A stretch of DNA of 64,000 nt from Candidatus Eiseniibacteriota bacterium. Its GTDB lineage: Bacteria > Eisenbacteria > RBG-16-71-46. Each line of letters opens with the position of its first letter. Positions within the stretch are counted from its first letter, which is position 1. Positions 1-48,047 of this stretch are shown one piece after another. Location of the stretch: assembly GCA_963725865.1 (NCBI GenBank), contig CAVSAC010000014.1, positions 389,298 through 453,297 on the forward strand, in the 5' to 3' direction. The notes under the pieces are model-generated. The model searched no databases. It was given only the letters and a program-made list of their open reading frames with translations, and was not told the DNA's origin. The position numbers and the translations under genes were made by a program.

Positions 1-3000
1 GTTCGTGTAGGTGCAGCCGTTGCGAACGCCGTAGATATCGCCCGTGGGGGAGATATCGGTGCTGACCTTCAGATCCGACCACTGCTCGAAGTTCGCCGCC
101 AGCGACCGATACGACTGGAAGTAGAAATCGAATCCCAGGTAGTCGGTCATGAACGCTTCCTGCTCGAGGCTCGTGTTCCAAGCGGACTCCGCGAAGCCGT
201 CGCCCTGGATCATGATGCCGCGCGGTGCACCCAGCGTGGCACCCAGCAGCCAGTTCTGAAGCAGCGTCACGTCATCCTGCGAGCGATCGTCGAACGGACC
301 GATCACACCCGAGTTCAGGTCACCCGAGAGGATGATGAGGACCTTGTAGTACGCGTCCAGCATCTCGGGCGTCGGAGCCATACGAGCGTACTTGTTGTGC
401 ACGAGGTTCGTCGGCGACGGGTCGGTGTAAGCGAGACGGCCGCCCAGGGCGCCCGCGCTCGTGGTCAGCGACTCCGAAGCCTTCACGCCGTACATGTCCC
501 ACGTGCTGCCGGGCTGGCCACCATGTGAGGAGACGTAGTAGGCCGGCGTGTTCAGGCTGACGCCCGCGGGCACGCCACCCCAACCGTTGTGAGCGCCACG
601 ACGAGTCGCCGCGGTCGCGCCGATCGAGTCGGCCACCGAGACAAACACGCGCTCGTCACCACGACGGTCATTGAGGTCGACGTACAGGGCGCACGCCATC
701 GTCGAACCAGGCGTGAAGTTTGCGTCCTTCCAACGATCCGGAAGAACACCGAACTGCTGCCACCGGTGGGCGTCGAAGCTCGGGCCCTCCGAGGACTGCG
801 GGAACACGGTGTTGGTATCCGGGCACATATCGAACACGGCAGGATTGGCGACCGTGCGCTTCGTGAAGAAGTACTCCACGTGAGCGCCAGGCGTCAGCAG
901 ACCGTCAGGAAGGATCTGCGTGGCCTCGACCGAGTTCGCATTGCCGTCGTACCCCGCGCGCGCCGCGAGAGGCGCGTTCAGCAGCCACGCCGGCACGGTG
1001 CTGCAGGTGACGTTCGCCGCGGTGGTGCCACCGAGCGTGTCGACGATGAAGCACTTGTGCTTCGAGATACCCAGAGTCGTGTAGTGAGCATCTGACTCGT
1101 GGAAGCTCGACATCCAGACGTTGGCATCCAGCTTGTCGTTGGTGCCGACATCGCCGAAGCCACGCGCCGCGACCGGGAACAGCCCGACCTGAGCGGTGTC
1201 GCAGCGAGCGCTACGCCACACGTTCGGGTTCCAGCCACCCGGCCAGCCCGCGTCGAGAGCCGCAGAACCAGGGGTCGCGAACTCGCCCGGGGTGGAGATG
1301 AACTGACCCCAGAACGAACCGGCACCCGCCGCCGCCGTGCTGGTCGGAACGGCACGCAGCCCGCTCGTCGGCACGCCGATGGTGATGTAGTTGCCGACGC
1401 CCGGCTTGATGCGGAAGACCATGTCCAAACGGATCGGCTCCGTCGGGCTGTCCGCCGCATTGATGACGACCGAGTCACCAGGAACGTCGTAACGGAATGC
1501 GTCACCAGTGGTCTGCGCGATGTTGAATCCCGTACGAAGGAGGGCCGAGGTCGTGTCGAAATTCGCCGTACCCGGCAGACCCGCGGTCTCATTGAACGGG
1601 AACGCATCGTTGATCCAGTTCCAGATGTCCACCGACATGGCCTGCGGCGTTCCGTCGATGATCGCGAACGACGTGTTGTCCATGTAGGCGCCGTCCGTCG
1701 GCGAGCAGCCCGTCGTGACGCCGAAGCGGTAGCACTGCTGGAGCTTGCGAAGGCTGATGCGGATCGAGTCCGGACGCGCCAGGCCCGAGCCGTTCGCCGA
1801 CAGGATCTGGCCCTGCGAGCCCAGGTCCTCGAGCGACGAATAGCACTGCACCAGCGGATTGAAATAGAGGAACTGCGGCAGCCGCTGCTCGCCCCAGTTG
1901 GGCGTGCCGGGTGCCGGGCCACCCGCCACCTGCAACGCAGGATAGGTCTGGCAGGTGAACTGCCAGGCATTGCCCTGGTTGAAGATGTCGAAGATGCCCA
2001 TGTAGAACTCGTACTGCATGTGGTAGCCCTGCGTCGGGGTCGCCTGCTCCAGCGTGAGGCCGAAGCTGTTCGGCACACCCGAGGCCGCCACGAGTCCGAT
2101 GGTCGGCGACACGATGCCCCAGTTACCTTCCTCTTCGGTGGTACCCGGGAGTCCGCCGGCAGCCTCGCCAGCGTCGTGGTCGCCCATCGAAACCACACCA
2201 CCGCGCATGTCGCAGATGCGGTAGATGCTGTTGATGTCACCGCAGACATCGTTCCAAGCCAGCGTGTTCAGATCGTGCTGGTGGAAGTAGATGGCCGGCG
2301 GCTTGCCCGTCGAATGCCACGCCGCGGAGGCCGCCACCGAGTTGTCGATGGAGCCTGCTAGCCTCGAAGTCTCCGATCGAGACCGGGCCAGCGCCCAGGT
2401 CGATCGTGACATCGTCCACCTGCGCAGCGCCCCTGCCCTGCGAGGTGAAGGTCGCCGGACCCGATTCATCCGAGCTGCCGGCGTTGGTGTGGACACGGAA
2501 CACGACACGCAGCGTGTTGTTGCCGCCGGCCTTGAGGGCCGCGACATTCGCCGCGCTGATCGTGATGCTCTGGGTCGAAGCGGCGTTGGAGCCCGCGGCG
2601 CCATACACCCACAGGCGCTGACCCTTCGTGAGGACTTCATTGAACCAGCGGCGCAGCGGATCGTAGATCGTGCGCGAGACATTGTCCGACGCGACGAACG
2701 TACCTTCCACCGGCTTGCCCACGTAGACCTGGAACGAGTCGATCGGGGCCTCCGCGTTCGCGGGGGTGCCGGCTTCCGCCGAGACGAAGTTGCCCGGGGT
2801 GATCGCGTTCACGGTCAGCGGGTCACCCTCGAACCAACCCGTGCGGGACGCCGGGGTGGTCCCCTTCAGCGTCGACATCTCGGTCGCGTACTTGAAGCCC
2901 AGCGTGATCGCACCGGCCGCCGACGTGATGTCGACGTCGCGGTACAGCATCTGATCCATCTGCGCGCCGTAGCCCGGGAACGTCTTGCTGGTGCCCGTCC

Positions 3001-3676
3001 CGATACCACCGGAGCCGTTGAAGATCAGAGCGTCCACGTTGAACGGATTGCCCGTGATCGCATCGGACACGGTCAGGTCGTTGTGCTGACGCAGACCCAT
3101 CCACGCGGAGAACGAGCCGCCCAGCGGCGCCCAGTTGACGCCGGTGCCACCCGTGCCCTGAGGTCCAGGGACGGTGTTGCCCGGGTCACGGTGCCACACG
3201 CCGACCACACCGAAGGTGCGCTTGAAGCCAGCACCCTGGTTGATCACGTAGTTGGCCTGGTTACCGTTCTCGATGGCCCACCACGGACGATTCTCGTCCG
3301 TACGGACGGCGCCCGAGGCGTTGGTGTGAGGGAAACGTACCGGCCACCAGCCCTGAAGGCTGTCGCCGTGAATCGGGTTATCCCACTCCCAGTTGCCGGT
3401 GGTGAACGGCGTGGGACGGTTGGGACCGGGACCGACTTGCCAGTAGTTGGTGACACCCGCGGCCGTGCTGAAACCGACCCACGTGGTATCGCCGACACCG
3501 GCGGTTCCGGAGACGCCCTGCCGGGCCGCTGCGCTGCGCGCCTGGATCTGGAGCTGGGCATTGTTCAGCTTGAGGCCGAACTGATCCCCACCTTCCATTT
3601 CCGCCGCGAACGCCGCCGTCGCCAAGCAAGTCGCCGCTCCCGCGAGGAGAAGCAGCGCGACGAACGACTTCCTCAT
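1..3676 (-). CDS. Very large secreted protein (>1220 aa, 3' end beyond window), N-terminal signal peptide. Reading frame breaks near 2345-2360, so it is either a frameshifted pseudogene or a sequencing error.
   Basis: ORF 2237..3709 begins MRKSFVALLLLAGAATCLATAAFA (Sec signal) with a GGAGG RBS upstream of ATG 3676. Its last ~40 codons look non-coding. A +1-shifted frame continues as clean high-GC3 protein-like sequence from ~2350 to nt 1 with no stop. I translated this myself (...GSIDNSVAASAAWHSTGKPPAIYFHQHDLNTLAWNDVCGD...GVRNGCTYTN). It is absent from the ORF track only because it runs off the window edge. Confidence 0.6.
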
Positions 3677-4020
3677 GTGACTACCTCCATCGTCGCAATG
3701 CATGGGCAATGCGAAGTCTTCCGAAGTACGGATTGCGAGCGAGGTGTCTCAGAAAACAAAGCCGCCGACGGGTCTCGAATGAATCTCATGCGAGAACTCC
3801 CTCGGCAGTCTGCTGCACGAGTACCGATCCCCCCTTTCCGCTGTCGCGCTCGGACCCTTAGGCAGTTCGGGCCGCACGCGACACTGTGATTGCGCGTGAA
3901 CTCGTACGGAGTCGACATGAAGCGGCACGCCGCTGCCAGCGCATCGGACCATGACGACCGCGGAACTCGAGGTGCATCTGGGGGTTTTCAAGACGCACCA
4001 ACTACCCCAGCACGAGTCAG

Positions 4021-4052
4021 AGGCTAGGCCCCCTGACAGGGTTCTGTCAATC
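4021..4052 (-). promoter_or_regulatory. Candidate sigma70-like promoter (minus-strand TTGACA, 18 nt spacer, TAGCCT) embedded in a TGACAG-N4-CTGTCA palindrome, ~350 nt upstream of the giant secreted gene
   Basis: A 6-bp-arm palindrome (CTGACAGggttCTGTCAA) overlaps the -35-like hexamer. It sits in the only lower-GC intergenic stretch (3700-4088). Confidence 0.2.
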
Positions 4053-4087
4053 CGTTTTTTTGCTGGGACTTGGCAGGATAGCCCGGT

Positions 4088-5395
4088 TCATGTCGAGAGT
4101 CTGACACGCCGCGCCGCGATCGAGTCCAGCCACTGTGGGTCCTGGCTCGCCACCATCACCGGCGTCGTGAGCGAATGGCGCAGAATCGCGGCGGCAGCGG
4201 CGGCCCGCCGTGAGCGGTCGAGCCCGGCGGTCGGCTCGTCCAGCAGCAGCAGTCCGGCCGGCGCCGTGAGGGCCCCGACCAGCTGGACCACCCGCTTCTC
4301 GCCGCCCGAGAGCCCCCACACGCGCCGCCCCTCGAGGGCGCCGCAGCCGAGCTCCTCCAGCAGGGCAACGGCTGTATCGACCGCAGCTTGGCGCTTCGCT
4401 CCTCGCTGGACGGCGGCCCACGTCACTTCGGCCAGAACCTGCTCTTCGAAGATCTCGTGTTCCGGGTACTGGGTCGCGAGCAGCGGTGGATCCTCGAGGG
4501 TTCGCCGCCAGTCCACCCGCACCTGAGGCAGCTCGATCGCACCGGCGATCGCGGCGAGCAGGACGCTCTTGCCGGCGCCATTGGGCCCCTCGAGGGCGGT
4601 CACGCCGGCGGCGGCCACCTCGATCGAGAGCGGAGCGGCGACGGGCACCCGCGGACCGTGGCAGGACGGCGGCGGGGCAACCTCGACGACGACGAGCGCG
4701 GGTTGGACACCCGGAGGCCCGGACTCGGCCCGGAAGGCCGGGTGGCTCACCCCATCGAGTTCGCCGATGATGAGTTCGCGATGCGCCGCCGCGCGCTCCT
4801 GTGGGTCCTGGGTCACCCAGACCAGCGCGAGTCCCTCGGCCACTTCCTGACGCAGGACCTCGAGCACCCGACCGCGGGTTGCGGCGTCGAGATGCGCCCC
4901 CGCCTCGTCGGCGATCAACAGCCGCGGCCGCGCCGCGAGCGCCGCAGCGAGGAGCACCAACTGTTGCCGGCCGGCGGAGAGTTCGCGCGGGTCGCGTTCC
5001 AGGTCCGCCGTGAGGTCCAACTGCTCCGACAGTCGCGCGATCTCCCGCGCGACCTCGCCGGGCGCGCGTCCGAGATTGCGCGGCGCCATTGCGAGTTCCG
5101 CGGCGACCGTCGACTGGAGGAGCTGGATCCCCGGGTCCTGCATCACCACCGCGACCGCCGCGCGCGCCGCGGCGGGCGCCCCCGGCTGCAACGGTCGCCC
5201 CTCGAACTCCACGACGCCGCGCTGCGCGGGCCACAGTCCGCCCAGCACCATCGCCAGCGTGGTCTTGCCACCCCCGTTGGGCCCGTGGAGCGCGATCCAC
5301 TCGCCGGCGCCCACCTCTAGAGAGACGCCCCGGACCGCGGGGTCCGGGGCTCCGGGCGGCGCGGCCCACACGTCGCGGGCACTCAGGCCACTCAC
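4088..5395 (-). CDS. Fused tandem ABC ATPase of ECF-transporter type (EcfA-EcfA'/CbiO-like), two nucleotide-binding domains in one polypeptide
   Basis: Two Walker A motifs (GPNGGGKTT, GPNGAGKS), two signature motifs (LSAGRQQ, LSGGEKR) and a Q-loop QYPEHEIF. GTG start overlaps the larC stop (GTGA). Confidence 0.75.
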   Translation of the reverse strand: MSGLSARDVWAAPPGAPDPAVRGVSLEVGAGEWIALHGPNGGGKTTLAMVLGGLWPAQRGVVEFEGRPLQPGAPAAARAAVAVVMQDPGIQLLQSTVAAELAMAPRNLGRAPGEVAREIARLSEQLDLTADLERDPRELSAGRQQLVLLAAALAARPRLLIADEAGAHLDAATRGRVLEVLRQEVAEGLALVWVTQDPQERAAAHRELIIGELDGVSHPAFRAESGPPGVQPALVVVEVAPPPSCHGPRVPVAAPLSIEVAAAGVTALEGPNGAGKSVLLAAIAGAIELPQVRVDWRRTLEDPPLLATQYPEHEIFEEQVLAEVTWAAVQRGAKRQAAVDTAVALLEELGCGALEGRRVWGLSGGEKRVVQLVGALTAPAGLLLLDEPTAGLDRSRRAAAAAAILRHSLTTPVMVASQDPQWLDSIAARRVRLST

Positions 5396-6573
5396 GCGTC
5401 CTGGCCCTCCGAGCGCCAGGCCGCGAGCGCCGCTTCGGCCACCTCGCGCCACGGACGCCCCGCGCGCTCGGCCGCCGCGCGTACCGATTCGAACTCCGGT
5501 ACCGCTCGCTCACTCCCGTCGGGCAGCGTCGCGATCTTCAGCGCCACCGCGCCGAAGGCCGTCGCGACCTCCGCGGCGCGCCGCGGCAGCTCCACGCGCT
5601 CCTCGTGACGCATGCGCACGCCGAGCGTGCCGGTTTCGGTGAGCAACCGGCGGGCGAGTGCCTCGGCCTGGTGTGGCTCGGCGATCACCACCAGCCACAG
5701 ACCGGGGCGGCCCTTCTTCATCACTGTGGGCACCACCATCGCGTCGAGCGCGCCCTCCGCGAGCAGCCGTGGGATCAGCGCGCCCACCACCTGTGGATTC
5801 TCGTCGTCGAGCGAGGTTTCGAGCACCGTGACCGCGCGCCGCTCGAGCCCTGCGTCTCCGGTGTTGCCGATGAGGATGCGCAGCACGTTCGGCTGTTCCG
5901 CCAGCTCGCGCCCGCCGGCACCCAGTCCGACGCGCTCGAGCGTGTACGTGGGCGGTGGGCCCCACGTGTGCACCAGCGTGGCGAGCAGCGCGGCGCCGGT
6001 CGGCGTGACCAGTTCGGCGCGCACGTCGGTGGGCGCGATCGGGATTCCCTGCACCAGCAGCGCGGTCGCCGGTGCCGGCACCGGCATGCGGCCGTGCTCG
6101 CACTCCACGGTGCCGTTGCCGAGCGGCAACGACGAGGCGAACACGCGCTGGACACCGAGCGCCTCCAGGCCGAGCACGGTACCCACCACGTCCACGATGG
6201 CGTCCACGGCGCCGACCTCGTGGAAGTGCACCTGCTCGACGGTCGTGCCGTGCACGGTGGCCTCCGCCTCGGCCAGGCGGCGGAACACCGCGCGGGCCCG
6301 CGCGCGCACCGTCTCCGGCAGGTCGCCGGCGTCGATCATCGCCTCGATGTGCCGCAGATGACGGTGCGGCTGACCGCCCGCGGCATTCACCTCGACCCGC
6401 GTGGCCTCGAGCGCGCCGCGTCGCGCGCGACCCACGGTGACCGTGGCGCCTGCGAGCTTCAGGCGCGCCGGCAGCGCCACGAGCTCCGCGGCCGGCCAGC
6501 CCGCCGCGACCAGGGCCGCGAGGCACATGTCCCCGCTCACCCCGGAGAAGCAGTCGAAGTACGCGATCCGCAT
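5392..6573 (-). CDS. larC: Nickel-pincer nucleotide cofactor nickel-insertion protein LarC (DUF111 family)
   Basis: Hallmark N-terminus MRIAYFDCFSGVSGDM. Full length 393 aa with the expected C-terminal domain. Confidence 0.8.
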   Translation of the reverse strand: MRIAYFDCFSGVSGDMCLAALVAAGWPAAELVALPARLKLAGATVTVGRARRGALEATRVEVNAAGGQPHRHLRHIEAMIDAGDLPETVRARARAVFRRLAEAEATVHGTTVEQVHFHEVGAVDAIVDVVGTVLGLEALGVQRVFASSLPLGNGTVECEHGRMPVPAPATALLVQGIPIAPTDVRAELVTPTGAALLATLVHTWGPPPTYTLERVGLGAGGRELAEQPNVLRILIGNTGDAGLERRAVTVLETSLDDENPQVVGALIPRLLAEGALDAMVVPTVMKKGRPGLWLVVIAEPHQAEALARRLLTETGTLGVRMRHEERVELPRRAAEVATAFGAVALKIATLPDGSERAVPEFESVRAAAERAGRPWREVAEAALAAWRSEGQDA

Positions 6574-6607
6574 GTCGTCCCCCAGGCCGCCGCGTCGTCG
6601 CCGCGCG

Positions 6608-7393
6608 TCAGCCGCGCGCGCGTCGGCCCCCGGCGACCGCGCGCCGGACGTTCGCGGTGTTCACCAGATGGGCGGCGTAGCCGGCCCCGAATCCGTTGTC
6701 GATGTTCACCACGGTCACGCCGGCCGCGCACGAATTGAGCATCGCGAGCAACGGCGCGAGGCCGTGGAAGTGCGCGCCGTAGCCGACGCTGGTCGGCACC
6801 GCGATCAGCGGCCGGTCGGTGAGTCCGCCCACCACGCTCGCGAGCGCGCCCTCGAGTCCCGCCACCACCACCAGCACGCGGGCGCCGCGCAGCTTCTCGC
6901 GATGCGCGAGCAGCCGGTGGAGCCCCGCCACCCCGACGTCGGCGACCAGTTCCGCGCGACTGCCCAGGGTGCGCGCGGTCACGAGCGCCTCCTCGGCGAC
7001 CGGCAGGTCCGCGGTTCCCGCGCACAGCACCACCACGCGGCCGATCGCACGGCCCGCGCGCCGGCGCACCACGACGGCGCGCGCGCGCCCCCACACCTCG
7101 GCGCGCGGGAACGCCGCGCGCAACCGTGCCTGGGCGTCCTCGCTCGCGCGCGTCACCAGCACCACGCCATGGCGCGCATACAAGCGCTGCACGATGGCCA
7201 CGATCTGCGCCGGCGCCTTCCCCTGGCCGAACACCACTTCGGGGAAGCCGGTGCGCAGCGCGCGCTGGTGGTCGAGGGTCGCGAACTCGAGCTGCTCGAA
7301 CGGCGCCTCGCCGATGGCCTGGGCCGCCGCGCCGACCGAGACGGCCCCACGCCGCACGCGGCCGAGCAGGCGCTTCAGGTCATCCGGTCGCAC
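6608..7393 (-). CDS. larB: LarB, PurE-like pyridinium-3,5-biscarboxylic acid mononucleotide synthase
   Basis: PurE/AIR-carboxylase-like core (VVVLCAGTADLPVAEE...VVVAGLEGALASVVGGL...IAVPTSVGYG) with the N-terminal extension typical of LarB. GTG start overlaps the dus stop. Confidence 0.7.
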   Translation of the reverse strand: MRPDDLKRLLGRVRRGAVSVGAAAQAIGEAPFEQLEFATLDHQRALRTGFPEVVFGQGKAPAQIVAIVQRLYARHGVVLVTRASEDAQARLRAAFPRAEVWGRARAVVVRRRAGRAIGRVVVLCAGTADLPVAEEALVTARTLGSRAELVADVGVAGLHRLLAHREKLRGARVLVVVAGLEGALASVVGGLTDRPLIAVPTSVGYGAHFHGLAPLLAMLNSCAAGVTVVNIDNGFGAGYAAHLVNTANVRRAVAGGRRARG

Positions 7394-8423
7394 GCGCGTC
7401 CTCCAGGTCGCGGGGCGGGTCCGCCGCCGCGAGCCCGCCGCGCTCCAGTTCGGCCAGGTAGCCGCGCAGCAGAGCGACCATCTCCTCGACCGAGCGGGTG
7501 TGGTTGACCTGCTCGCGCACGCGCGCGCTGTGCGGCAGGCCCTTGATGTACCACGCGACGTGCTTGCGCATCTCGCGCGCGGCCGACTCCGGACCCACCG
7601 CTTCGACGAGCATCCCGAGGTGGCGCACCCCGGCTTCGAGGCGCGCGGCCGCGGTCGGCGGCGCCAGCACCTCGCCGCGCTCGTGGAACGCGCGCAGGCG
7701 CCGGAACACCCACGGGTCACCGAACGCCGCGCGGCCGAGCATCACGCCGTCGCAGCCGGTGGTGGCGAGCATGCGGAGCGCGTCCTCGGGCCCGCGCACG
7801 TCCCCGTTGCCGATCACCGGGATCCTCACCGCCTGCTTGGCCGCGCCGATCATGTCCCAGTGCGCGTGGCCCTCGAACTTCTCCGAGCGCGTGCGCGCGT
7901 GGATCGCGACCGCCGCGGCCCCCGCGTCCTCGAGCGCGCGGCTCACCTCGACGACGTTCGTCGAGGAGCCGTCCCAGCCGAGCCGGATCTTGGCGGTGAC
8001 GGGCACGGTGGCGACCGCTCGCATCGCGGTGACGATCGCGTGGATGCGCGAGACGTCCTGCAACAGCGCGGCGCCCGCGCAGCGGTTGACCACCTTGCGC
8101 ACCGGGCAGCCCATGTTGATGTCGATGAGGTCCGGCCGGCGCTCCGGCGGCAGGTCGCACAGCACGCGCGTGGCGTCGGCCATCACGGCCGGATCGGAGC
8201 CGAACAGTTGGATGCCGATCGGGCGCTCCTCGGGCGCGAACGCGATGTAGTCGAACGTGGCGCGCTGGCCGCGCACGAGCCCGTCGGAGGACACCATCTC
8301 GGTGTACACCGCGGCCGCGCCCTGCTCGCGTGCGAGCCGCCGGAACGGCGAGTCGCTCACCCCCGCGAGCGGCGCGAGGAGGAAGGGCGATTCGAACTGG
8401 AGGGAGCCGATGCGCAACGACAT
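7380..8423 (-). CDS. dus: tRNA-dihydrouridine synthase
   Basis: MSLRIGSLQFESPFLLAPLAGVSD...DINMGCPVRKV...KIRLGWD. FMN/TIM-barrel Dus signature. Confidence 0.8.
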   Translation of the reverse strand: MSLRIGSLQFESPFLLAPLAGVSDSPFRRLAREQGAAAVYTEMVSSDGLVRGQRATFDYIAFAPEERPIGIQLFGSDPAVMADATRVLCDLPPERRPDLIDINMGCPVRKVVNRCAGAALLQDVSRIHAIVTAMRAVATVPVTAKIRLGWDGSSTNVVEVSRALEDAGAAAVAIHARTRSEKFEGHAHWDMIGAAKQAVRIPVIGNGDVRGPEDALRMLATTGCDGVMLGRAAFGDPWVFRRLRAFHERGEVLAPPTAAARLEAGVRHLGMLVEAVGPESAAREMRKHVAWYIKGLPHSARVREQVNHTRSVEEMVALLRGYLAELERGGLAAADPPRDLEDARATG

Positions 8424-8454: not shown

Positions 8455-9123
8455 TCAGCCGCGCGGGGGCACGCCGGCGGGCCGGCGCCGCGCCCAGTCG
8501 GCGATGTCGGCGAAGGTCTCGAACGGTACCGCGGCCAGTCGTTCGCGGCGGCACCACTCCAGCAGTCCACGATGAGCGAGCACGGTCTCGGCGGCGCGGG
8601 CACCGCAGCGGTCGGAGAGGCCGTCGCCGACCAGCACCGTGTGGTAGCCGAGCGCGCGGTAGCGACGCACGTGCTGGGCCTTGCAGTTGCCGCATTGTCC
8701 GCAGCCGCCCACCAGATACGGGAACTCCGGCACCGCGCGGCCGCCCTCGAAGCGCAGGCGGTTCGCGGCGTAGGGCAGTTCGCCGAGGCCGGCCCGCTGC
8801 AGTTGATCGCGCACGTAGAGGTCGAACCCCTCGCTCACGACCATCACGGCATCCCCGCGACCGAGCGCCTCGCGCGCGAACGCGGCGAAATGCTCGTCGA
8901 TCCGGAAGCTCCGCGTGAACTCGAGTGCCTCGGCCTCGGCCACCCGCACGTCGGCGCACTGCGCCTCGGTCAGCTCCCGGTGTCCGATGCCGCCCGCGAA
9001 CCAGCGGTCGAGCAGCCGCTGGTGGGCGGCCGAGTCCCCGGTCGAGAACCGCCTCACGAGCGCGGCCCCGATGTCGGACGGCGACACGGTGCCGTCGAAA
9101 TCGCACAGGTACGCGTAGGGCAT
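8455..9123 (-). CDS. HAD-superfamily (subfamily IB, MtnX-like) phosphatase
   Basis: N-terminal HAD motif I CDFDGTV, 222 aa. Tightly packed between the S41 protease and dus. Confidence 0.5.
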   Translation of the reverse strand: MPYAYLCDFDGTVSPSDIGAALVRRFSTGDSAAHQRLLDRWFAGGIGHRELTEAQCADVRVAEAEALEFTRSFRIDEHFAAFAREALGRGDAVMVVSEGFDLYVRDQLQRAGLGELPYAANRLRFEGGRAVPEFPYLVGGCGQCGNCKAQHVRRYRALGYHTVLVGDGLSDRCGARAAETVLAHRGLLEWCRRERLAAVPFETFADIADWARRRPAGVPPRG

Positions 9124-9125
9124 GT

Positions 9126-10745
9126 TCAGTGCGAGGCTCCGGCCGCGATCGGCGCCGGCGCGGCCGCCAGCGGCGCACGCGCGGCCGGCGTCAGGACGGC
9201 GAACACGTCGCGCGCGCCCCGGGCGCGGCGCAGCACGGCCAGCGCGCGCTCGAACACGGCATCACCTTCGAGCGCGACCTTCGCGCCGGCCGCCTCGCCC
9301 TCGGTGCGGCGGGCCAGCTCGCGGCGCAGCGCGCGCTCCAGCAGCGGGCGCTCGGCGGTCTGCTCGGCCGCGTCGCCGGGCAGCCGCTCCTGGCTCAGGA
9401 AGTCCTCGAAGCCGCGGCGCATCGCGTCGTCGATCGTCGCATGCGCGCCGGGGTGGGTGGTGACCCAGCGGCTCGCGAAGCGCAGCGCGAGCCCGCGTCG
9501 CTCGACCTCGCGCGCCAGCGGCGGAAGCGAGTCCGGCGTGATCTCGAGATCCGGCGCGATGCCGCCGCCACCGTAGACGATGCGCCCCGACTTGGTGCGG
9601 AATTGCGGTCGTTCCGCGGCGGCACCGGCAGGCGTGGAGTCCGCAGGGCTGTCGGAGTCGTCCTCCTCGTCCACGCTCCCCTCGCCCGGGCGCGGGCCGC
9701 GGTGGATCGAGCGACCGCTCGGCGTGAAGTAGAGCGCGGTGGTGAGCTTGACCGCCCCGTTGCCGCCCGGCAGTGGGAACACGCTCTGCACCGAACCCTT
9801 GCCGAACGACGTCTGACCCACGACCAGCGCGCGGTCGAGATCCTGGAGCGCGCCGGCCACGATCTCGGAGGCCGAGGCCGTGCCCCGGTCGATCAGCACC
9901 ACCAGCGGGGCGCTCACGTCGGCGCGCGCGTCGGCCGCGGAGTAGCGGGCGTCCGCGCCGCGGGCGCGGCCGTCGGTGTACACCACCAGCGCGCCGCGCG
10001 GCAGGAACTGCTGCGCCACGCTCACCGCCTGGTCGAGCAGCCCGCCCGGATTCAGGCGCAGGTCGAGCACGAACGCGCGCGCGCCCTGGCGCCGCAGCGC
10101 GCCGAGCGCGGCCTGCAGCTCGGTCGCCGAGGTCTCCGAGAAGCTCGCGAGGCGCACGTAGCCGATCCCCGGCTCCGCCAGGAAGGCGTACGGCACGCTC
10201 TTCGTGTGGATGGTGCGGCGCGTGAGGGTGAGCTCGCGCTCGGTGGACTCGCCCTCGCGATCGATGGACAGGCTCACCGTGGACCCCTCGGGTCCGCGCA
10301 GCAGGTTCGCGATGTCCTCCATGGCGAGCCCCGCCGTGCTCTTGCCGCCGATCCGCACGATCACGTCGCCGGCGCTGATCCCCGCCTCCCATGCGGGAGT
10401 GCCCTCGATCGGAGCGATCACGGTCGGGAAGTTGTCGCGGATGCCGACCACCGTGCCGATCCCGTCGAACGAGCCCTGCGCGCTGCTCTGCAGCAGGCCG
10501 TACGACTTGGCGTCGAGGTACTGCGAATAGGGATCGAGGTCGCGCAACATGCCGCGCATCGCGCCGGAGACCAGCTTCTGGGGATCCACCGGATCGACGT
10601 AGTTCTGGTCGACCTTGTGGAGCACCTCGATGAACAGGTCGAGATTGCCGTAGAGGCCGCCCGCAGCGCCGCCGCGCCCCGCCCACCAGCCGAGCACGAA
10701 GAGCAGGACGAACAGAGCAGCGAGGAGTGCGCGAGTGCGGATCAA
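9126..10745 (-). CDS. ctpA: Carboxyl-terminal processing protease (S41 peptidase with PDZ domain), N-terminal membrane anchor
   Basis: PDZ region (GDVIVRIGGKSTAGL), S41 catalytic region (LVVLIDRGTASASEIVAGALQD...GQTSFGKGSVQS). TTG start with AGGAGAGG RBS. Confidence 0.8.
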   Translation of the reverse strand: MIRTRALLAALFVLLFVLGWWAGRGGAAGGLYGNLDLFIEVLHKVDQNYVDPVDPQKLVSGAMRGMLRDLDPYSQYLDAKSYGLLQSSAQGSFDGIGTVVGIRDNFPTVIAPIEGTPAWEAGISAGDVIVRIGGKSTAGLAMEDIANLLRGPEGSTVSLSIDREGESTERELTLTRRTIHTKSVPYAFLAEPGIGYVRLASFSETSATELQAALGALRRQGARAFVLDLRLNPGGLLDQAVSVAQQFLPRGALVVYTDGRARGADARYSAADARADVSAPLVVLIDRGTASASEIVAGALQDLDRALVVGQTSFGKGSVQSVFPLPGGNGAVKLTTALYFTPSGRSIHRGPRPGEGSVDEEDDSDSPADSTPAGAAAERPQFRTKSGRIVYGGGGIAPDLEITPDSLPPLAREVERRGLALRFASRWVTTHPGAHATIDDAMRRGFEDFLSQERLPGDAAEQTAERPLLERALRRELARRTEGEAAGAKVALEGDAVFERALAVLRRARGARDVFAVLTPAARAPLAAAPAPIAAGASH

Positions 10746-10857
10746 GACCTCTCCTGAAGCGGCTCCGGACCGGGCGGACGCGGGTCCGCCGGGAGGAGCC
10801 GGCGGACGAAGAGCGCACGGACTATAGCACAGCGCCGCGCGGCGGCCGGGCCCCGGC

Positions 10858-12456
10858 TCAGCGCCCGGCCGCGGGCGGGAGCGCGCCGCGAGCGGCCTCG
10901 AACAGCATCGCTTCGACGGTGGCCGCGGTGCGCTCGACATCGGGCGGCAGCGGGCCGAGCGCGCGCGCGCGCGTCAGACAGCGCCGCGCCGCGAGCGGAT
11001 CTCCCGCCGCCAGCCAGCCCTGGCTGGCGAGCAGCAGGTGGCGCGGGTTCGGCAGGATCGCGCTCGCGCGCTCGAAGTGACGCGCCGCCGTCCCGAAGTC
11101 ACGCTGCGCCGCGGCGCGATACGCGAGGTAGGTGAGTGCGTGGTTGCGCTGCTCGGCCGGCGGGGCCCATGCCCCGTCGACCAGCGCGAGCGCGCGGCGC
11201 TCACCGGCCCCGGCGTCGGCGTTCACCGCGACCCAGCCGAGCGCCTGCAGGGCGAGCACCGGGAGCAGCCAGCGGAGCGCGCGCTCCAGTCGCGCCGTCG
11301 GGACGCCTCCGAGCAGCGACGCGGCGCCGGCGCTCGCGAGCAGGCCGGGCAGCGCCACCAGGTCCCAGTCCCGCATCGCGCCCATGCCATGCGGCGCGAC
11401 CGGAAACACCAGCAGCAGCGGAGCCAGTGGCACCAGCGCGGAGAACGCGAGCGCGCCGCGCGGCGAGCGCGCGAACGCGGCCAGCGCGTCGCGCCCGGCC
11501 GCGAGCGGCGCGATCACCGCCAGCGGCAGCGCCAGCGCCACCAGGTTCACGAGGTCCCAGGGCGGCGTGAGCCGCAGGTCCCGCGCGGACAGACTGCGCA
11601 GCAGATCGCCCGCGTCGCGGCCGAGCGTCGCTCCACCCGGCAGCGCGGCCGCCGCGAGGGCGAGTACTGCGGCCGCCAGCGTGAGCCCCACGTGCAGGCG
11701 CCGCACCGCGCGGCGGTCGTCGGCGAGCGCGGGGCCGAACCCGCGCCAGGCCTGCGCGATCAGCAGCACCAGGGCGAGCCGGTGGGCGAGCAGCAGCAGC
11801 AGCCACAGCAGCGCGGTGCGCACCGCATCGCGGGGATGCGCGAGCGGGCGCAGGAGCACCGCCCACCACCACGCGGCCACCGCGAGCGCGAGCGCCCAGG
11901 CTTCCGCGTAGCCCGCGAACGCCTGCAGCGTCCCGGCCAGCAGCAGCGCCAGCGTCAGGGAGCGCCGCCGGTCGGCCGGGGCACTCGCGGCCACCACGCT
12001 TCGCACGCCGGCCGCGTACAGCAGGAACAGCGCCAGCCCGATCACCGCGATCGCGGTCGGGATCGACCACCCGAGCCGCGCCAGGATCAGCGGCAGCGTG
12101 ACGTTCACGAGGGCGTCGAGCGGCTGCGCGTGCAGGAAGCGCGCGAACGCGGCCAGATCCCAGCCGCCGGCGCCGCGGTCGGCGAGGGCGATCAGCGTGC
12201 GGAAGCGCATCTCGGTGTCGCCGAGCAGATGGGGCTGCTCGCGGAGTGGGAACGCGAGCGCCAGCCCCAGCGCGGCCACGATCGCCGCGAGCGGCACCCG
12301 CGGCAGCCGTGCCGCCGCCGCGAGCGCCACGCATCCCACCACCAGGGCCGCGGCCATCGCGGGACGGACGGAACGCAATCCGTCGAGCGCCCAGACCAGA
12401 TTCGAGGCGGGCGGGGCGACGGCCAGCACCGCGAGCCACGCCAGCGTGAGGACCAT
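10858..12456 (-). CDS. Polytopic inner-membrane protein with C-terminal TPR repeats (function unknown)
   Basis: Multiple hydrophobic helices followed by a TPR-like C-terminus (YLAYRAAAQRDFGTAARHFERA...). An alternative GTG start at 12522 overlaps the tmk stop. Confidence 0.5.
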   Translation of the reverse strand: MVLTLAWLAVLAVAPPASNLVWALDGLRSVRPAMAAALVVGCVALAAAARLPRVPLAAIVAALGLALAFPLREQPHLLGDTEMRFRTLIALADRGAGGWDLAAFARFLHAQPLDALVNVTLPLILARLGWSIPTAIAVIGLALFLLYAAGVRSVVAASAPADRRRSLTLALLLAGTLQAFAGYAEAWALALAVAAWWWAVLLRPLAHPRDAVRTALLWLLLLLAHRLALVLLIAQAWRGFGPALADDRRAVRRLHVGLTLAAAVLALAAAALPGGATLGRDAGDLLRSLSARDLRLTPPWDLVNLVALALPLAVIAPLAAGRDALAAFARSPRGALAFSALVPLAPLLLVFPVAPHGMGAMRDWDLVALPGLLASAGAASLLGGVPTARLERALRWLLPVLALQALGWVAVNADAGAGERRALALVDGAWAPPAEQRNHALTYLAYRAAAQRDFGTAARHFERASAILPNPRHLLLASQGWLAAGDPLAARRCLTRARALGPLPPDVERTAATVEAMLFEAARGALPPAAGR

Positions 12457-12524
12457 CAGCGCGCGCGACGTCCGCGCCTCGGCGCCCGCGACCGATGCGA
12501 CCGGGCGAGCGGAAACGCCCACGC

Positions 12525-13163
12525 TCACGCCTTCCGGCCGGCGCCCACCAGTCGTGGCTCGAGCACCTCCCACGCGCGGGTCTCGAGCAGGTCGGGGCCC
12601 TGTCGCGCATCCAGCGTCACCCAGCGGCGGGGCTCGGCGGCGGCGAGCGCACGATAGGCATCGTGCACGCGAGTGTGGAACGCGAGGTCCTCGCGATCGA
12701 GCCGGTTCGTGTCGTCGGCGGCGCCCGCGCGGCGCGCGAGCCCGACCTCGGGCGCGAGGTCGAACCACAGCGTGAGATCGGGCGCCAGCCCCCCGGTCGC
12801 CACGCGATTCCATTCGGCGAGCATCGCGCGATCGAGTCCGCGACCGCCACCCTGGTAGGCGAGCGTCGAGTCGGCGTAGCGGTCGCAGAGCACCACGCGC
12901 CCCTGCGCGAGCGCGGGGCGGATCACCGCGGCGACCAGATCGGCGCGCGCCGCCTCCATGAGCAGCGCCTCCGACACCGCGCCGGGTGCGAGCGACGGCG
13001 TGAGCAGCAGCGCGCGCACGCCCTCGGCGAGCGGCGTGCCGCCGGGCTCGCGCGTCAACAGCGGATCGTGGCCGGCGGTGCGCAGGCGCTCCGCCAGCCG
13101 GCGGAGCACCGTGGTCTTGCCCGAGCCCTCGCCGCCCTCGAAGGTGACGAAGAGCCCGGGCAT
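12525..13163 (-). CDS. tmk: Thymidylate kinase
   Basis: MPGLFVTFEGGEGSGKTT P-loop and LID region. ~212 aa. Confidence 0.85.
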   Translation of the reverse strand: MPGLFVTFEGGEGSGKTTVLRRLAERLRTAGHDPLLTREPGGTPLAEGVRALLLTPSLAPGAVSEALLMEAARADLVAAVIRPALAQGRVVLCDRYADSTLAYQGGGRGLDRAMLAEWNRVATGGLAPDLTLWFDLAPEVGLARRAGAADDTNRLDREDLAFHTRVHDAYRALAAAEPRRWVTLDARQGPDLLETRAWEVLEPRLVGAGRKA

Positions 13164-24884: not shown

Positions 24885-25280
24885 CTAGGCCTGCATGCGG
24901 TTCGGGCTGGACTGCCCGAGGATCGCGTTGATGCGTTCGACCAGCTTGCGGGGGCTGAACGGCTTGGTGATGTAGTCGTCCGCTCCCACCTCGAAGCCGA
25001 TCTTCTGGTCCACGTTGCGGCCCTTCGCCGACAGCAGGATGACCGGGATCTGCTTGGTGTTGTCGTCCGCCTTCAGCAGCTTGCAGGTCTCGTAGCCGTC
25101 CAGCTTCGGCATCATGATGTCGAGGACGATGAGATCGGGATGCTCCGCTCTCGCCTTCTCGAGTGCCTGTTCGCCGTCCAGCGCGGTCAGGACCTCGTAG
25201 CCCTCCATGCCGAGACTGAAGTCCAGGATGTGCACGATGTAGATCTCATCGTCCACCACCAGGATCTTTCCCTTCGCCAT
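24885..25280 (-). CDS. Stand-alone response-regulator receiver domain (CheY-like)
   Basis: ILVVDDE...LIVLDIMMPKLDGYE...ILLSAKG...DDYITKPF. 131 aa, no output domain. Confidence 0.8.
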   Translation of the reverse strand: MAKGKILVVDDEIYIVHILDFSLGMEGYEVLTALDGEQALEKARAEHPDLIVLDIMMPKLDGYETCKLLKADDNTKQIPVILLSAKGRNVDQKIGFEVGADDYITKPFSPRKLVERINAILGQSSPNRMQA

Positions 25281-25286
25281 TGCGAC

Positions 25287-30376: not shown

Positions 30377-30389
30377 CGCTCGCTCCGCG

Positions 30390-31382
30390 TCAGGCCACGT
30401 CGCGTTCGCTGCCCGGCGCCGTGTCGCTGCGGCGCCGTTCGCCGACCAGCACGCTGCCGGGGATGCCCTTGCCGTGCTCCTTCAGCTCCTGGGCCACGTC
30501 GATGAGCTGCGCGAGGTGCGTGACCGGCATCCGATCGGTGCTCACCATCGCAATCGTCACGCTCATGAGCGGGAATCGCTCCGGCACGTGGAGGCGATTG
30601 CGCACCTCGATGTGCCCGCGGGCCACGTCCGCCTCGTCGTAGAGGGCCGGCACCGCCTCGGTGAACTGGGCGATGATCTCGTGGCCGATCGGCTCGGCGT
30701 GCTCCGGAGACGTCAGCAGCACGAAGTCGTCGCCGCCGATGTGCCCCACGAATCCGCCCGCGCCGCCGAGCCGCGCGGAGACCTCGACCAGGATCGCCGC
30801 GAGGCGCTGAATGGCCTCGTCTCCGCGCGCGTAGCCGTAGTGGTCGTTGAACGCCTTGAAGAAGTCGATGTCGACCTGGAGCATCGCGAACGGCAGCCCG
30901 CTCGCGAGGCGGAGCTGGATCTCGTCGTGGATCGAGATGTTGCCCGGCAGCCCGGTGAGCGGGCTCATCGCGCGCTGCTGGCGGCTCCACTCCAGCATGT
31001 TGCGGATGCGCAGCAGCAGCTCGCGGTGCTCCCACGGCTTGGTCACGTAGTCGTTGGCGCCATCCGCGAGCCCCGAGACCTTGTCGGCGACCTCGGACTT
31101 CGCGGTGAGCATGATGATCGGGAGCGTGCGGGTCTCGAACGCGGCGCGCAGCCGGCGACACACCTCGTAGCCGTCGAGCCGGGGCATCATCACGTCGAGC
31201 AGCATCAGATCGGGGCGGTACGACAGCGCGTACTCGAGGGCCTGCTGTCCGTCGCGGGCTTCGATCACGTCGAAGCCGGCGCCCTCCAGCTGGAAGCGAA
31301 GCACCTCTCGGAGGTGGGGCTCATCCTCGGCGATGAGGATCCGGGTCGTGTTCACGCCGTCGTGGCTCCTGTGGAGTCGCAT
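30390..31382 (-). CDS. Response regulator REC-GGDEF (PleD/WspR-like diguanylate cyclase) with non-canonical GGDDF active-site motif
   Basis: REC (ILIAEDEP...LMLLDVMMPRLDGYE...TAKSE...DYVTKPW). GGDEF domain (FKAFNDHYGYARGD...GHIGGDDFVLL). No RxxD I-site upstream of the motif. Confidence 0.8.
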   Translation of the reverse strand: MRLHRSHDGVNTTRILIAEDEPHLREVLRFQLEGAGFDVIEARDGQQALEYALSYRPDLMLLDVMMPRLDGYEVCRRLRAAFETRTLPIIMLTAKSEVADKVSGLADGANDYVTKPWEHRELLLRIRNMLEWSRQQRAMSPLTGLPGNISIHDEIQLRLASGLPFAMLQVDIDFFKAFNDHYGYARGDEAIQRLAAILVEVSARLGGAGGFVGHIGGDDFVLLTSPEHAEPIGHEIIAQFTEAVPALYDEADVARGHIEVRNRLHVPERFPLMSVTIAMVSTDRMPVTHLAQLIDVAQELKEHGKGIPGSVLVGERRRSDTAPGSERDVA

Positions 31383-31787
31383 CGTTGAGTTCGGAACACA
31401 GATCAGCCGTGGACACCTCGGAGGCCGCGACCCGCTGGACTCCGACCGCCCGAGCGTCGCGAGGACGCGCGAGCACCACGCGACGGGCCGTGGAGGGAGC
31501 ACGCCGCGTGTCCGGCCGGGATCCGGGGCGGGAAGTGACTGCCCCGTGTACCCCTAGGCTTTCCCCTGACTTATCGGCGCAGGGCGGGGGTTACTTGACC
31601 GTCGTCTGGGGCGCGAGCCAATGGGGAAGGCGGAGTCCGGCCCGACTGGACCGGGCCGCAGGCACGGCCACGGACCTCGCGAGTCGCGTGCATCTGAACA
31701 CCTGCCGGCCCGCACTGGGCGGGCATCAGCGCCCTGCGGAGGGCGCCGGCGGCGCGTGGCGAGCGGTGGTCCCGGGCCCGGACCGCG

Positions 31788-47897: not shown

Positions 47898-47911
47898 CGC
47901 GCGTCCCCGAC

Positions 47912-47948: not shown

Positions 47949-48047
47949 GCATTCCTGCGGGCCGACCGCCCCGCGTCACGCCGCGGTGATGCGCAGCCCC
48001 AGCCTGGGGTCGACGGTGAACAGCGAGCCGACCAGTGGCTCCTTCAG

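What the first reader, a model, noticed from the sequence alone, without database searches (positions are those of the whole stretch)
4088..7393. larB-larC (nickel-pincer nucleotide cofactor genes) translationally coupled to a fused double ECF-type ABC ATPase, with no larA/larE or ECF S/T components nearby
LarB and LarC belong to the LarB/LarE/LarC pathway that builds the Ni-pincer cofactor of lactate racemase (LarA). Here larB and larC sit at the 3' end of a long mixed-function operon (S41 protease, HAD phosphatase, dus). The operon ends in a single polypeptide containing two CbiO/EcfA-like ATPase domains, whose start overlaps the larC stop. No EcfT, S-component, LarE or LarA is encoded in the window. 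The dedicated tandem ATPase may energise nickel (or cofactor-precursor) import for LarC, or act with an unlinked membrane module. Why larB and larC travel with tRNA-modification and protease genes is unclear. A LarA-independent use of the cofactor is possible, since several LarA-family racemases/epimerases are known.
Basis: partly seen in the sequence, partly recalled or inferred. Interest (0 to 1): 0.55.

Follow-up and report, generated by a model that had tools for sequence, protein, structure and literature searches.

The report
larB-larC plus orphan fused ECF-type ATPase
Two genuine nickel-pincer cofactor genes (larB, larC) are followed by, and overlap, a divergent two-domain ABC ATPase with no membrane partner nearby; this arrangement is conserved across the candidate phylum Eiseniibacteriota, which makes the ATPase a testable candidate helper of nickel-cofactor synthesis, though its role is still unproven.

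Summary
On the minus strand, larB is 6608-7393, larC is 5392-6573, and a 435-aa tandem ABC ATPase is 4088-5395. The ATPase GTG start overlaps the larC stop (GTGA).

LarB and LarC pass their curated equivalog HMMs and keep published catalytic residues. LarB is not PurE. No LarA, LarE, EcfT/CbiQ, S-component or NikMN gene lies in the 64 kb window.

New here:
- The window is from Candidatus Eiseniibacteriota.
- The block S41-(HAD)-dusB-larB-larC-ATPase is conserved in seven other contigs, down to about 37% ATPase identity.
- None of these eight loci has an EcfT gene, against 73 of 79 control ECF-ATPase loci that do.
- The ATPase descends from an EcfA1-EcfA2 fusion but is derived. It scores below every curated cut-off, has no C-terminal helices, and has Gln in place of the H-loop His in both halves.

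Best reading: it is the motor of an ECF-type importer whose membrane parts are encoded elsewhere, possibly for nickel. A soluble LarC-associated role is not excluded. LarA-independent use of the cofactor is already documented.

The finding is moderately interesting: a new variant of a known kind.

In passing, I found a conserved, structured leader RNA of about 350 nt just downstream, with no Rfam match.

The parts
6608..7393 (-). larB (261 aa), pyridinium-3,5-biscarboxylic acid mononucleotide synthase
   Evidence: NF033503 LarB scores 275.4 bits (cut-off 175). PurE scores 28.8 (cut-off 149.6). Residues 9-246 align to L. plantarum LarB 7mj0/8soq at 241 bits, and the Cys of the LNSCA motif is conserved. 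The GTG start at 7393 is preceded by GGAGG and overlaps the dusB stop by 14 nt.
5392..6573 (-). larC (393 aa, LarC1 and LarC2 fused), CTP-dependent nickel-inserting cyclometallase
   Evidence: PF01969 scores 450 bits; TIGR00299 219.4 (cut-off 90); NF052512 125.5 (cut-off 50). It aligns over its full length to M. thermoacetica LarC 12bi_D at 369.6 bits. E104, H108, H116, H118, H160, H70 and H72 are all conserved (residue roles from PMC13510736).
4088..5395 (-). Tandem (fused) ABC ATPase, 435 aa, of EcfA1-EcfA2 ancestry ('short form')
   Evidence: It has two PF00005 domains. The N-half best matches ECF_ATPase_1 at 129.5 bits; the C-half is diverged. It is 100% identical to P0001, which sits on a 1.71 Mb contig. 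GTG 5395 overlaps the larC TGA as GTGA. The AF2 model has pLDDT 88.2 and shows two NBDs joined by a disordered linker at residues 213-229, with no extra domain. The H-loop is Gln in both halves.
7380..8423 (-). dusB, tRNA dihydrouridine synthase (upstream operon member)
   Evidence: TIGR00737 DusB scores 367.2 bits (cut-off 293.3). The ATG at 8423 was chosen by alignment with the 351-aa orthologues.
8455..9123 (-). HAD-IB (MtnX-like) phosphatase (upstream operon member; present only in the short-form class)
   Evidence: PF12710 and TIGR01488 (52.8 bits, cut-off 45) match. The gene is absent from long-form loci L085-L087.
9126..10940 (-). S41 C-terminal processing protease (upstream operon member; true start uncertain)
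   Evidence: Peptidase_S41, PDZ and CtpB_N domains match; TIGR00225 scores 305.5 (cut-off 218.6). Its stop lies 2 nt before the HAD ATG.
3677..4065 (-). Operon boundary: conserved promoter-like element (AAAAAACGGATTGACA-N18-TAGCCT) and a ~350-nt conserved structured leader of the next gene
   Evidence: This stretch is near-identical DNA in relatives whose flanking ATPases are only 50-65% identical. Sixteen base pairs show compensatory changes, against 9.5 +/- 1.9 in shuffles. There is no Rfam match. The promoter call is my own reading; the scan tool does not call it.

Best explanation
Shown: larB and larC are genuine nickel-pincer nucleotide (NPN) biosynthesis genes. They form the distal end of an old, lineage-wide conserved operon of Candidatus Eiseniibacteriota. 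The last gene is a divergent fusion of EcfA1-like and EcfA2-like ABC domains. Its start codon overlaps the larC stop, so the two proteins are probably made together.

Inferred: the ATPase is the cytoplasmic motor of an ECF-type importer whose EcfT and substrate-capture subunits are encoded elsewhere in the genome. Because its coupling to larC has survived very deep divergence, its cargo is most plausibly the nickel that LarC inserts. This would parallel the ABC transporter genes that sit beside the lar genes of Lactiplantibacillus plantarum.

Also inferred: LarE (the sulfur-insertion step) and the enzyme that uses the cofactor must be encoded outside this 64 kb.
For: Gene identity:
- LarB and LarC score above their curated cut-offs.
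- The LarC catalytic residues E104, H108, H116, H118 and H160 are conserved.
- LarB aligns over its full length to the solved L. plantarum enzyme.

Coupling and conservation:
- The larC/ATPase junction is a GTGA overlap preceded by a GGAGG.
- The order dusB-larB-larC-ATPase holds in L001-L004 (ATPase 50-65% identical) and in L085-L087 (about 37% identical, 572-598 aa). Five of these seven relatives keep an overlap of 1-4 nt between larC and the ATPase.

ECF ancestry:
- The N-halves of both forms best match ECF_ATPase_1. The long-form C-half best matches ECF_ATPase_2 (174.3 bits), reaching profile position 262 of 279, so it keeps the EcfA C-terminal region.
- The Q-helix motif X-P-D/E-X-Q-phi, described as specific to ECF ATPases (PMC6828968), is present in both halves of the long form (PDPQF, PERQL) and in the C-half of the short form (YPExQI).
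- An acidic residue at the position of the EcfT-contacting residue is (nearly) invariant in both short-form halves (E100, E323).
- The best per-domain structural and sequence match is CbiO of CbiMQO, at 33-34% identity and rmsd 1.9-2.3.

Precedent and nickel demand:
- The L. plantarum lar locus includes an ABC transporter system (PMC10250755). From my own knowledge, this is the nickel ECF transporter Lar(MN)QO of Desguin et al. 2014.
- The same window encodes a NiFe hydrogenase with a HycI maturation protease, so the organism needs nickel.
Against: - No EcfT, S-component or NikMN gene lies within 10 kb in any of the eight loci, or within the 64 kb window. By contrast, 73 of 79 control ECF-ATPase loci carry an EcfT-like ORF. 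ECF ATPase genes are thus normally next to ecfT.
- All curated ECF and CbiO HMM cut-offs are missed by a wide margin.
- The short form has lost the C-terminal helices.
- The short-form N-half Q-helix lacks the acidic residue that 125 of 131 control domains have.
- The short form has Gln in place of the H-loop His in both halves (86/92 and 89/92 family members), against His in at least 136 of 146 control domains.
- The long form has Gln in place of the Walker B catalytic Glu in its N-half.
- Nothing ties the cargo to nickel except the neighbourhood.
- Whether any EcfT exists in these genomes is unknown.
Confidence: 0.45

Rival explanations
1. General-purpose ECF motor that merely hitch-hikes. 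The fused EcfA1-EcfA2 protein energises ordinary vitamin S-components together with a remote EcfT. It sits after larC only because this housekeeping gene block has been inherited intact. There is no functional tie to the nickel cofactor.
For: - The halves resemble group-II EcfA1 and EcfA2 more than metal-specific CbiO or NikO models. The top single-NBD PDB sequence hit is EcfA1 of the folate/vitamin ECF module 4huq.
- The whole block from rsmI to the ATPase mixes unrelated housekeeping functions and is conserved as a unit, so synteny alone does not imply shared function.
Against: - The start/stop overlap with larC is kept in most loci, while the genes downstream of the ATPase differ completely between the two classes. 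The ATPase therefore stays attached to larC specifically.
- A shared vitamin motor would be expected to stay canonical. This one has lost the H-loop His (short form) or the N-half catalytic Glu (long form).
- The lack of an adjacent ecfT is atypical.
Confidence: 0.25
2. Soluble accessory ATPase of cofactor assembly. The tandem ABC protein no longer docks to a membrane T subunit. Instead it acts on LarC or a downstream apo-enzyme, for example by loading nickel, resetting the LarC hexamer, or driving cofactor hand-over. This would be analogous to SufC in SufBCD, or to the tandem-ABC component A2 that activates the nickel enzyme methyl-coenzyme M reductase.
For: - No membrane partner gene occurs in any of the eight loci.
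- The co-translational arrangement with larC is conserved.
- The derived catalytic motifs and the trimmed, domain-free architecture suggest changed constraints.
- Among whole-chain structural neighbours is the MCR activation component A2, 8s7v_K (rank 5, TMq 0.63). This shows that soluble tandem ABC ATPases can serve nickel-cofactor enzymes.
Against: - No direct evidence of any interaction.
- The Foldseek ranking simply reflects tandem-NBD topology: OppD/DppD, EttA and ABCE1 score alike.
- The ECF-type Q-helix and the acidic groove residue remain conserved, which is what an EcfT-docking surface would need.
- In vitro NPN synthesis needs only LarB, LarE and LarC (PMC11770544).
Confidence: 0.2
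3. Mis-annotation. 'LarB' is an ordinary PurE, or 'LarC' is an unrelated DUF111 protein, so the cluster has nothing to do with the nickel-pincer cofactor.
For: LarB belongs to the AIR carboxylase (PurE) fold and hits PF00731.
Against: - The PurE equivalog scores 28.8 against a cut-off of 149.6, while LarB scores 275.4 against 175.
- LarB matches solved LarB at 241 bits but PurE 2ywx at only 29 bits.
- LarC matches solved LarC at 369.6 bits with all tested catalytic residues present.
Confidence: 0.01

Closest known systems
lar locus of Lactiplantibacillus plantarum: larABCDE plus the adjacent ABC/ECF nickel transporter operon, Lar(MN)QO with ATPase LarO (Desguin et al. 2014, from my own knowledge; locus composition also stated in PMC10250755)
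   Same: NPN biosynthesis genes are genetically linked to a CbiO/EcfA-family ATPase. The logic is to supply nickel to LarC.
   Different: Here there is no LarA, LarE, LarD or LarR, and no M/N (S) or Q (T) membrane subunit. The ATPase is a single fused two-domain chain, is co-translated with LarC, and has non-canonical catalytic motifs. The genes sit inside a housekeeping operon rather than a lactate-regulated one.
Fused ('duplicated') ECF ATPases such as YkoD-type EcfA1-A2 fusions (Rodionov et al. 2009, from my own knowledge); control loci L005, L007, L010, L016, L019, L025, L052, L061
   Same: One polypeptide carries an EcfA1-like and an EcfA2-like domain. The long-form orthologues (572-598 aa) match them in size and in the C-terminal regions.
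   Different: Eight of the ten fused controls tested have CbiQ/EcfT immediately downstream, and the other two have it just upstream. The Eiseniibacteriota genes never do. The short form is about 130 aa shorter and has Gln in place of the H-loop His.
Group-II ECF energising module EcfA-EcfA'-EcfT (e.g. PDB 4huq, 5jsz) and group-I CbiMQO (5x3x/5x41)
   Same: Best HMM and PDB similarity per domain. The Q-helix motif is present (fully in the long form, in the C-half of the short form).
   Different: Scores are far below the curated family cut-offs. There is no T gene nearby. The short form has no C-terminal dimerisation helices (allowed for group I, mandatory for group II according to PMC6828968).
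Soluble tandem ABC ATPases that serve cofactor enzymes: MCR activation component A2 (8s7v_K); SufC of SufBCD
   Same: ABC ATPase without its own membrane domain gene, linked to the maturation of a metallocofactor (nickel in the MCR case). Comparable whole-chain fold match (TMq 0.63).
   Different: There is no specific sequence relationship: TIGR03269 scores only 96 bits against a cut-off of 517 for the long-form C-half. This is an analogy only.

Membership tests
LarB (NPN biosynthesis carboxylase/hydrolase) | Scores above the curated LarB equivalog model and below the PurE model | tested here: met
   NF033503 scores 275.4 (cut-off 175). TIGR01162 purE scores 28.8 (cut-off 149.6).
LarB (NPN biosynthesis carboxylase/hydrolase) | Full-length similarity to solved LarB, including the active-site Cys (Cys221 of L. 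plantarum LarB; its role is recalled from Rankin et al. 2021) | tested here: met
   Residues 9-246 align to 7-245 of 7mj0/8soq at 241 bits. The LNSCA Cys is aligned and conserved.
LarC (CTP-dependent nickel cyclometallase) | Both LarC1 and LarC2 domains are present, each above its curated cut-off | tested here: met
   TIGR00299 scores 219.4 (cut-off 90). NF052512 scores 125.5 (cut-off 50). PF01969 scores 450 bits over profile positions 1-374 of 375.
LarC (CTP-dependent nickel cyclometallase) | Essential residues E104, H108, H118 and H160, plus the His cluster H70, H72 and H116 (M. thermoacetica numbering, PMC13510736) | tested here: met
   All are conserved in the alignment to 12bi_D. H53 is Gly; its substitution had only a moderate effect in the paper.
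Complete NPN pathway (LarB + LarE + LarC) with a cofactor user | LarE sulfur insertase and a LarA-family, NphT-type or other NPN enzyme in the same genome | not testable with these tools
   None is present in the 64 kb window or within 10 kb in the seven relatives. The rest of the genome could not be read.
ECF transporter ATPase (EcfA1/EcfA2/CbiO) | Reaches the curated family score | tested here: not met
   ECF_ATPase_2 scores 174.9 (cut-off 330), cbiO 173.3 (cut-off 211.8) and ECF_ATPase_1 163.5 (cut-off 315). These are still the top-ranked families.
ECF transporter ATPase (EcfA1/EcfA2/CbiO) | Q-helix motif X-P-D/E-X-Q-phi after the Q-loop (PMC6828968) | tested here: inconclusive
   The C-half has YPExQ/E-I, which fits. 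The N-half has DP[S/G/A]xQL and lacks the acidic residue in all 120 short-form members. The long-form orthologues have it in both halves. Among controls, 125 of 131 domains have it.
ECF transporter ATPase (EcfA1/EcfA2/CbiO) | Gene linked to an EcfT/CbiQ gene | tested here: not met
   0 of 8 loci have one (six-frame HMM search, E <= 10), against 73 of 79 control loci.
ECF transporter ATPase (EcfA1/EcfA2/CbiO) | Canonical catalytic set: Walker B Glu and H-loop His | tested here: not met
   The short form has H-loop Gln in both halves (86/92 and 89/92). The long form has DQ at the N-half Walker B. Among controls, at least 136 of 146 domains have His.
ECF transporter ATPase (EcfA1/EcfA2/CbiO) | Physical docking to EcfT coupling helices | not testable with these tools
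   The only indirect evidence is that an acidic residue at the groove position is conserved (E100, E323).
Lar(MN)QO / NikMNQO / CbiMNQO metal ECF transporter | M/N substrate-capture unit and Q (T) unit encoded with the O ATPase | tested here: not met
   No CbiM/NikM or CbiQ domain occurs in the window or in related loci.
ABC-F / ABCE1 / MCR-A2 soluble tandem ABC proteins | Family-specific inter-domain linker or extra domains, and family HMM score | tested here: not met
   The AF2 model shows only a disordered linker of about 17 residues and no extra domain. ABC-F, RLI and A2 models score far below their cut-offs.

The most novel reading that the evidence does not exclude
The tandem ABC protein may be a dedicated accessory factor of nickel-pincer cofactor biogenesis that works without an EcfT subunit. 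On this reading, an ECF motor was captured by LarC and now uses ATP binding or slow hydrolysis to load nickel onto the LarC hexamer, to reset it, or to hand the finished cofactor to apo-enzymes. That would be a fourth Lar maturation protein, analogous to SufC or to MCR component A2.
Probability: 0.2. Interest if true: 0.7.

Novelty: new variant of a known kind. Interest (0 to 1): 0.4.

Why it matters
NPN biology is an active field. A full-length LarC structure and a new NPN enzyme family were both published in 2026. How LarC obtains nickel in vivo, and whether further maturation factors exist, are still open questions.

This finding offers a concrete candidate: an ATPase kept fused in expression to larC across a whole candidate phylum, with no membrane partner beside it and with altered catalytic motifs. 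It is either a new way of wiring nickel import to cofactor synthesis or a new accessory protein.

The placement of larBC inside a core housekeeping operon also suggests that the cofactor is central to Eiseniibacteriota, an uncultured soil phylum. That makes the phylum a good place to look for new NPN-dependent enzymes.

If the ATPase turns out to be an ordinary vitamin ECF motor, the finding reduces to a lineage-specific gene-order curiosity.

Tried and rejected
Attempts to read the source genome or gather more relatives:
- Exact-protein look-ups of LarC and of the source ATPase P0001 returned nothing. The source genome could therefore not be read beyond the window.
- The single genome-contig scan, run with an ATPase alignment, was saturated by generic ABC motifs (ADE..AH.D, LDEPTAGLD). 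It returned no named Eiseniibacteriota genome. It did supply 79 control ECF loci and, by luck, L082.
- The single metagenome-contig scan was saturated in the same way by EGPNGAGK. It gave only two true relatives, L088 and L089.

Ideas rejected:
- Loci labelled Binatia, Bacteroidota, Dormibacteraeota or Limnocylindria looked at first like evidence that the linkage spans several phyla. I rejected this because they share the same long synteny block, so they belong to the same lineage or are mis-binned.
- The conserved C-terminal peptide 'SKKTD' of some ATPase homologues looked like a motif. I rejected this: it is the downstream promoter-like DNA read in frame.

Searches that found nothing useful:
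- Rfam found nothing in the window at gathering threshold, nor in 3600-4150 at E <= 1.
- The sigma-70 scan does not call the promoter I propose.
- Literature: the supplement of PMC13524815 is not held. No paper searched mentions an ABC ATPase next to larC. The primary Desguin 2014 and 2018 papers are not held.
- Foldseek against the PDB did not discriminate function. It ranks all tandem-NBD proteins together.

Not attempted: a LarC-ATPase multimer prediction. There is no multimer tool, and the paired alignment would be too shallow.

Full report
**1. What is at 4088-7393**

The window has about 75% G+C, so long spurious ORFs occur on every strand. Codon-position G+C and domain searches single out one minus-strand gene run.

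larB runs 6608-7393. Its GTG start is preceded by GGAGG and overlaps the stop of the upstream dusB by 14 nt. larC runs 5392-6573, with ATG 34 nt after the larB stop. A tandem ABC ATPase runs 4088-5395. Its GTG lies inside the sequence GCGTGAGTG, so start and larC stop overlap as GTGA, again with a GGAGG upstream.

Upstream on the same strand are dusB (7380-8423), a HAD-IB phosphatase (8455-9123) and an S41 protease (9126-10940). They are separated by 2-31 nt or overlap. The consensus scan finds no terminator-like site on that strand.

**2. Are the assignments right?**

Yes.
- LarB scores 275.4 bits on the NCBIfam LarB equivalog (cut-off 175). It scores only 28.8 on PurE (cut-off 149.6).
- LarB aligns nearly end to end with the solved L. 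plantarum LarB at 241 bits. The cysteine of the LNSCA motif is conserved.
- LarC scores 450 bits on PF01969 and passes both the LarC1 and LarC2 models.
- LarC aligns over 388 residues with the M. thermoacetica LarC cryo-EM chain at 369.6 bits. By my count of that alignment, every residue the 2026 structural paper reports as essential or conserved is present: E104, H108, H116, H118, H160, H70 and H72.

**3. What is missing locally**

I translated 60 ORFs covering the coding regions of the 64 kb and scanned them against Pfam. There is no LarA N-domain, no LarE-type PP-loop protein, no CbiQ/EcfT, no CbiM/NikM and no ECF S-component.

To make the EcfT negative robust, I built an EcfT HMM. I started from eight Pfam-confirmed CbiQ proteins next to fused ECF ATPases, then expanded to 72 sequences. 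A six-frame search of the window and seven related loci gave nothing better than E = 6.

**4. Where it comes from and how conserved it is**

The ATPase is 100% identical to a database protein on a 1.71 Mb contig. Its named relatives are Candidatus Eisenbacteria, phylum Eiseniibacteriota.

Four relatives with 50-65% identical ATPases (L001-L004) share one gene order: rsmI-like methylase, CDP-alcohol transferase, inositol-1-phosphate synthase, tmk, S41, HAD, dus, larB, larC, ATPase, then a giant secreted protein.

A second, deeper class (L082/L085, L086, L087) has only about 37% ATPase identity. It keeps the same block minus the HAD gene, with quite different genes after the ATPase. In L082 the larC/ATPase junction is again GTGA.

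Some of these contigs are labelled Binatia or Bacteroidota. The shared long synteny argues that they belong to the same lineage.

So larB-larC-ATPase is an ancient unit, and the ATPase stays with larC while its downstream neighbours change. This also answers why larBC 'travel with' dus and a protease: the block is an inherited housekeeping superoperon, not evidence of a shared pathway.

**5. Anatomy of the ATPase**

The protein has two nucleotide-binding domains joined by a disordered linker of about 17 residues, with no extra domain (AF2 model, pLDDT 88.2).

Scanned by halves:
- The N-half best matches EcfA1 (129.5 bits).
- In the long-form orthologue the C-half best matches EcfA2 (174.3 bits), including the C-terminal region.
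- The short-form C-half has drifted, scoring 75 on AztA and 69.6 on EcfA2.
- All scores lie far below the curated cut-offs.

The ECF-specific Q-helix motif (PMC6828968) is intact in both halves of the long form and in the C-half of the short form. The short-form N-half lacks the acidic residue, which 125 of 131 control domains have.

The catalytic motifs are unusual:
- The short-form family has Gln in place of the H-loop His in both halves (86/92 and 89/92). Controls have His in at least 136 of 146 domains.
- The long-form family has Gln in place of the Walker B Glu in its N-half, and Glu in place of the Q-loop Gln in both halves.

**6. The contrast with ordinary ECF loci**

The genome scan failed to return Eiseniibacteriota, but it provided 79 control loci with EcfA-type ATPases from many phyla. 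Of these, 73 carry an EcfT-like ORF within the locus, usually directly after the ATPase genes. Three of the six exceptions are contigs of about 5 kb or less. None of the eight Eiseniibacteriota loci does. The absence of a T gene is therefore a real peculiarity, not a sampling effect.

**7. Interpretation**

Three readings remain.

(a) *ECF motor with remote T and S units, serving nickel supply to LarC.* ECF ancestry, the retained Q-helix and groove residue, the conserved co-translation with larC, the precedent of an ABC/ECF nickel transporter beside the L. plantarum lar genes (PMC10250755; details from my own knowledge), and the nickel demand of a NiFe hydrogenase in the same window all fit. 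I rate it about 0.45.

(b) *The same motor serving unrelated vitamins.* Its position would be a historical accident (about 0.25).

(c) *A soluble ATPase acting on LarC or on cofactor hand-over* (about 0.2). This is the most novel reading. It fits the missing membrane genes and the altered catalytic motifs. It has an analogue in the tandem-ABC component A2 that activates nickel-dependent MCR, which appears among the structural neighbours. There is, however, no direct evidence for it.

AKR-fold NphT enzymes and an NPAD-dependent cyclodeaminase are published, and many genomes have larBCE without larA (PMC13524815).

**8. Limits**

I could not read the rest of any Eiseniibacteriota genome. Whether larE, a cofactor-using enzyme, ecfT or a nickel S-unit exists elsewhere is therefore untested. 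This is the decisive missing computation.

**9. Side observation**

Immediately after the ATPase stop lies the motif AAAAAACGGATTGACA-N18-TAGCCT, followed by about 350 nt. This DNA is almost identical in relatives whose flanking proteins are only 50-65% identical.

A consensus fold of six copies has 87 pairs. Sixteen show compensatory changes, against 9.5 +/- 1.9 in shuffles and 3-8 in slid controls. An invariant helix pairs the Shine-Dalgarno sequence of the downstream giant secreted-protein gene. No Rfam family matches. This looks like an undescribed structured leader and deserves its own follow-up.

**10. Verdict**

This is a new variant of a known kind (lar genes linked to an ECF-family ATPase), of moderate interest at 0.4.

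Noticed in passing
window 3677-4065 (minus strand); also L001:11340-11726, L002:11312-11710, L003:11324-11720, L004:11380-11770, L089:1561-1960: The intergenic region between the ATPase and the giant secreted-protein gene is almost identical at DNA level in relatives whose flanking ATPases are only 50-65% identical. It holds the motif AAAAAACGGATTGACA-N18-TAGCCT, a TGACAG/CTGTCA palindrome, and a leader of about 350 nt. The consensus fold has 87 pairs, 16 of them with compensatory changes (0 of 500 shuffles reach this). An invariant stem sequesters the GGAGG before ATG 3676. There is no Rfam match. This is a candidate new structured leader or riboswitch-like RNA.
   Followed up: partly
window 4047-4090; C-termini of P0008, P0048, P0077, P0087: Several annotated ATPase homologues end in '...SKKTD'. 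This is not a protein motif. It is the conserved AAAAAACGGATTGACA element read in frame, with the stop TGA lying inside TTGACA. In the window the same peptide appears in another frame just past the real stop.
   Followed up: yes
window 1-3676 (minus strand), break near 2190-2350: A giant secreted protein (signal peptide MRKSFVALLLL...) has single-ORF orthologues of 1435-1516 aa with a weak FlgD_ig hit. In the window it is split between two reading frames: orthologue residues 1-521 are in frame -3, and residues 478-1282 are in frame -1. This is a frameshift, either a pseudogene or an assembly indel. The region also has 64-66% G+C, against about 75% elsewhere.
   Followed up: partly
window 36933-38829 (minus strand): An ABC exporter has its ABC_membrane domain (38005-38829) and its ABC_tran domain (36936-38042) in different reading frames. 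This is either a second possible indel in the assembly or two overlapping genes.
   Followed up: no
window 45587-53891 (minus strand): A metal-uptake cluster holds a porin-like BBP2 protein, a ZnuA-type binding protein, an ABC-3 permease, a TonB-dependent receptor and a weak CobW-like GTPase. No ABC ATPase gene lies next to the permease.
   Followed up: no
window 54241-60178 (plus strand): A NiFe-hydrogenase gene set is present: a Fer4_22 protein, an NAD-binding/Fe-S subunit, a large subunit (NiFeSe_Hases) and a HycI-type maturation protease. The organism therefore has a second nickel demand besides the pincer cofactor.
   Followed up: no
window 24885-31553 (minus strand): Two large paralogous sensor proteins, each combining HisKA/HATPase_c, GAF and HD_5 domains, sit side by side. 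They are flanked by a stand-alone receiver and a receiver-GGDEF protein.
   Followed up: no
window 10858-12813 (minus strand); L001:3301-4662, L004:3069-4382: The slot between tmk and the S41 protease is variable. In the window it holds a 651-aa membrane protein with no Pfam hit, on the operon strand. In L001 it holds an unrelated 453-aa gene on the opposite strand. In L004 it holds a PMT_2 glycosyltransferase. In L002 and L003 it is empty.
   Followed up: no
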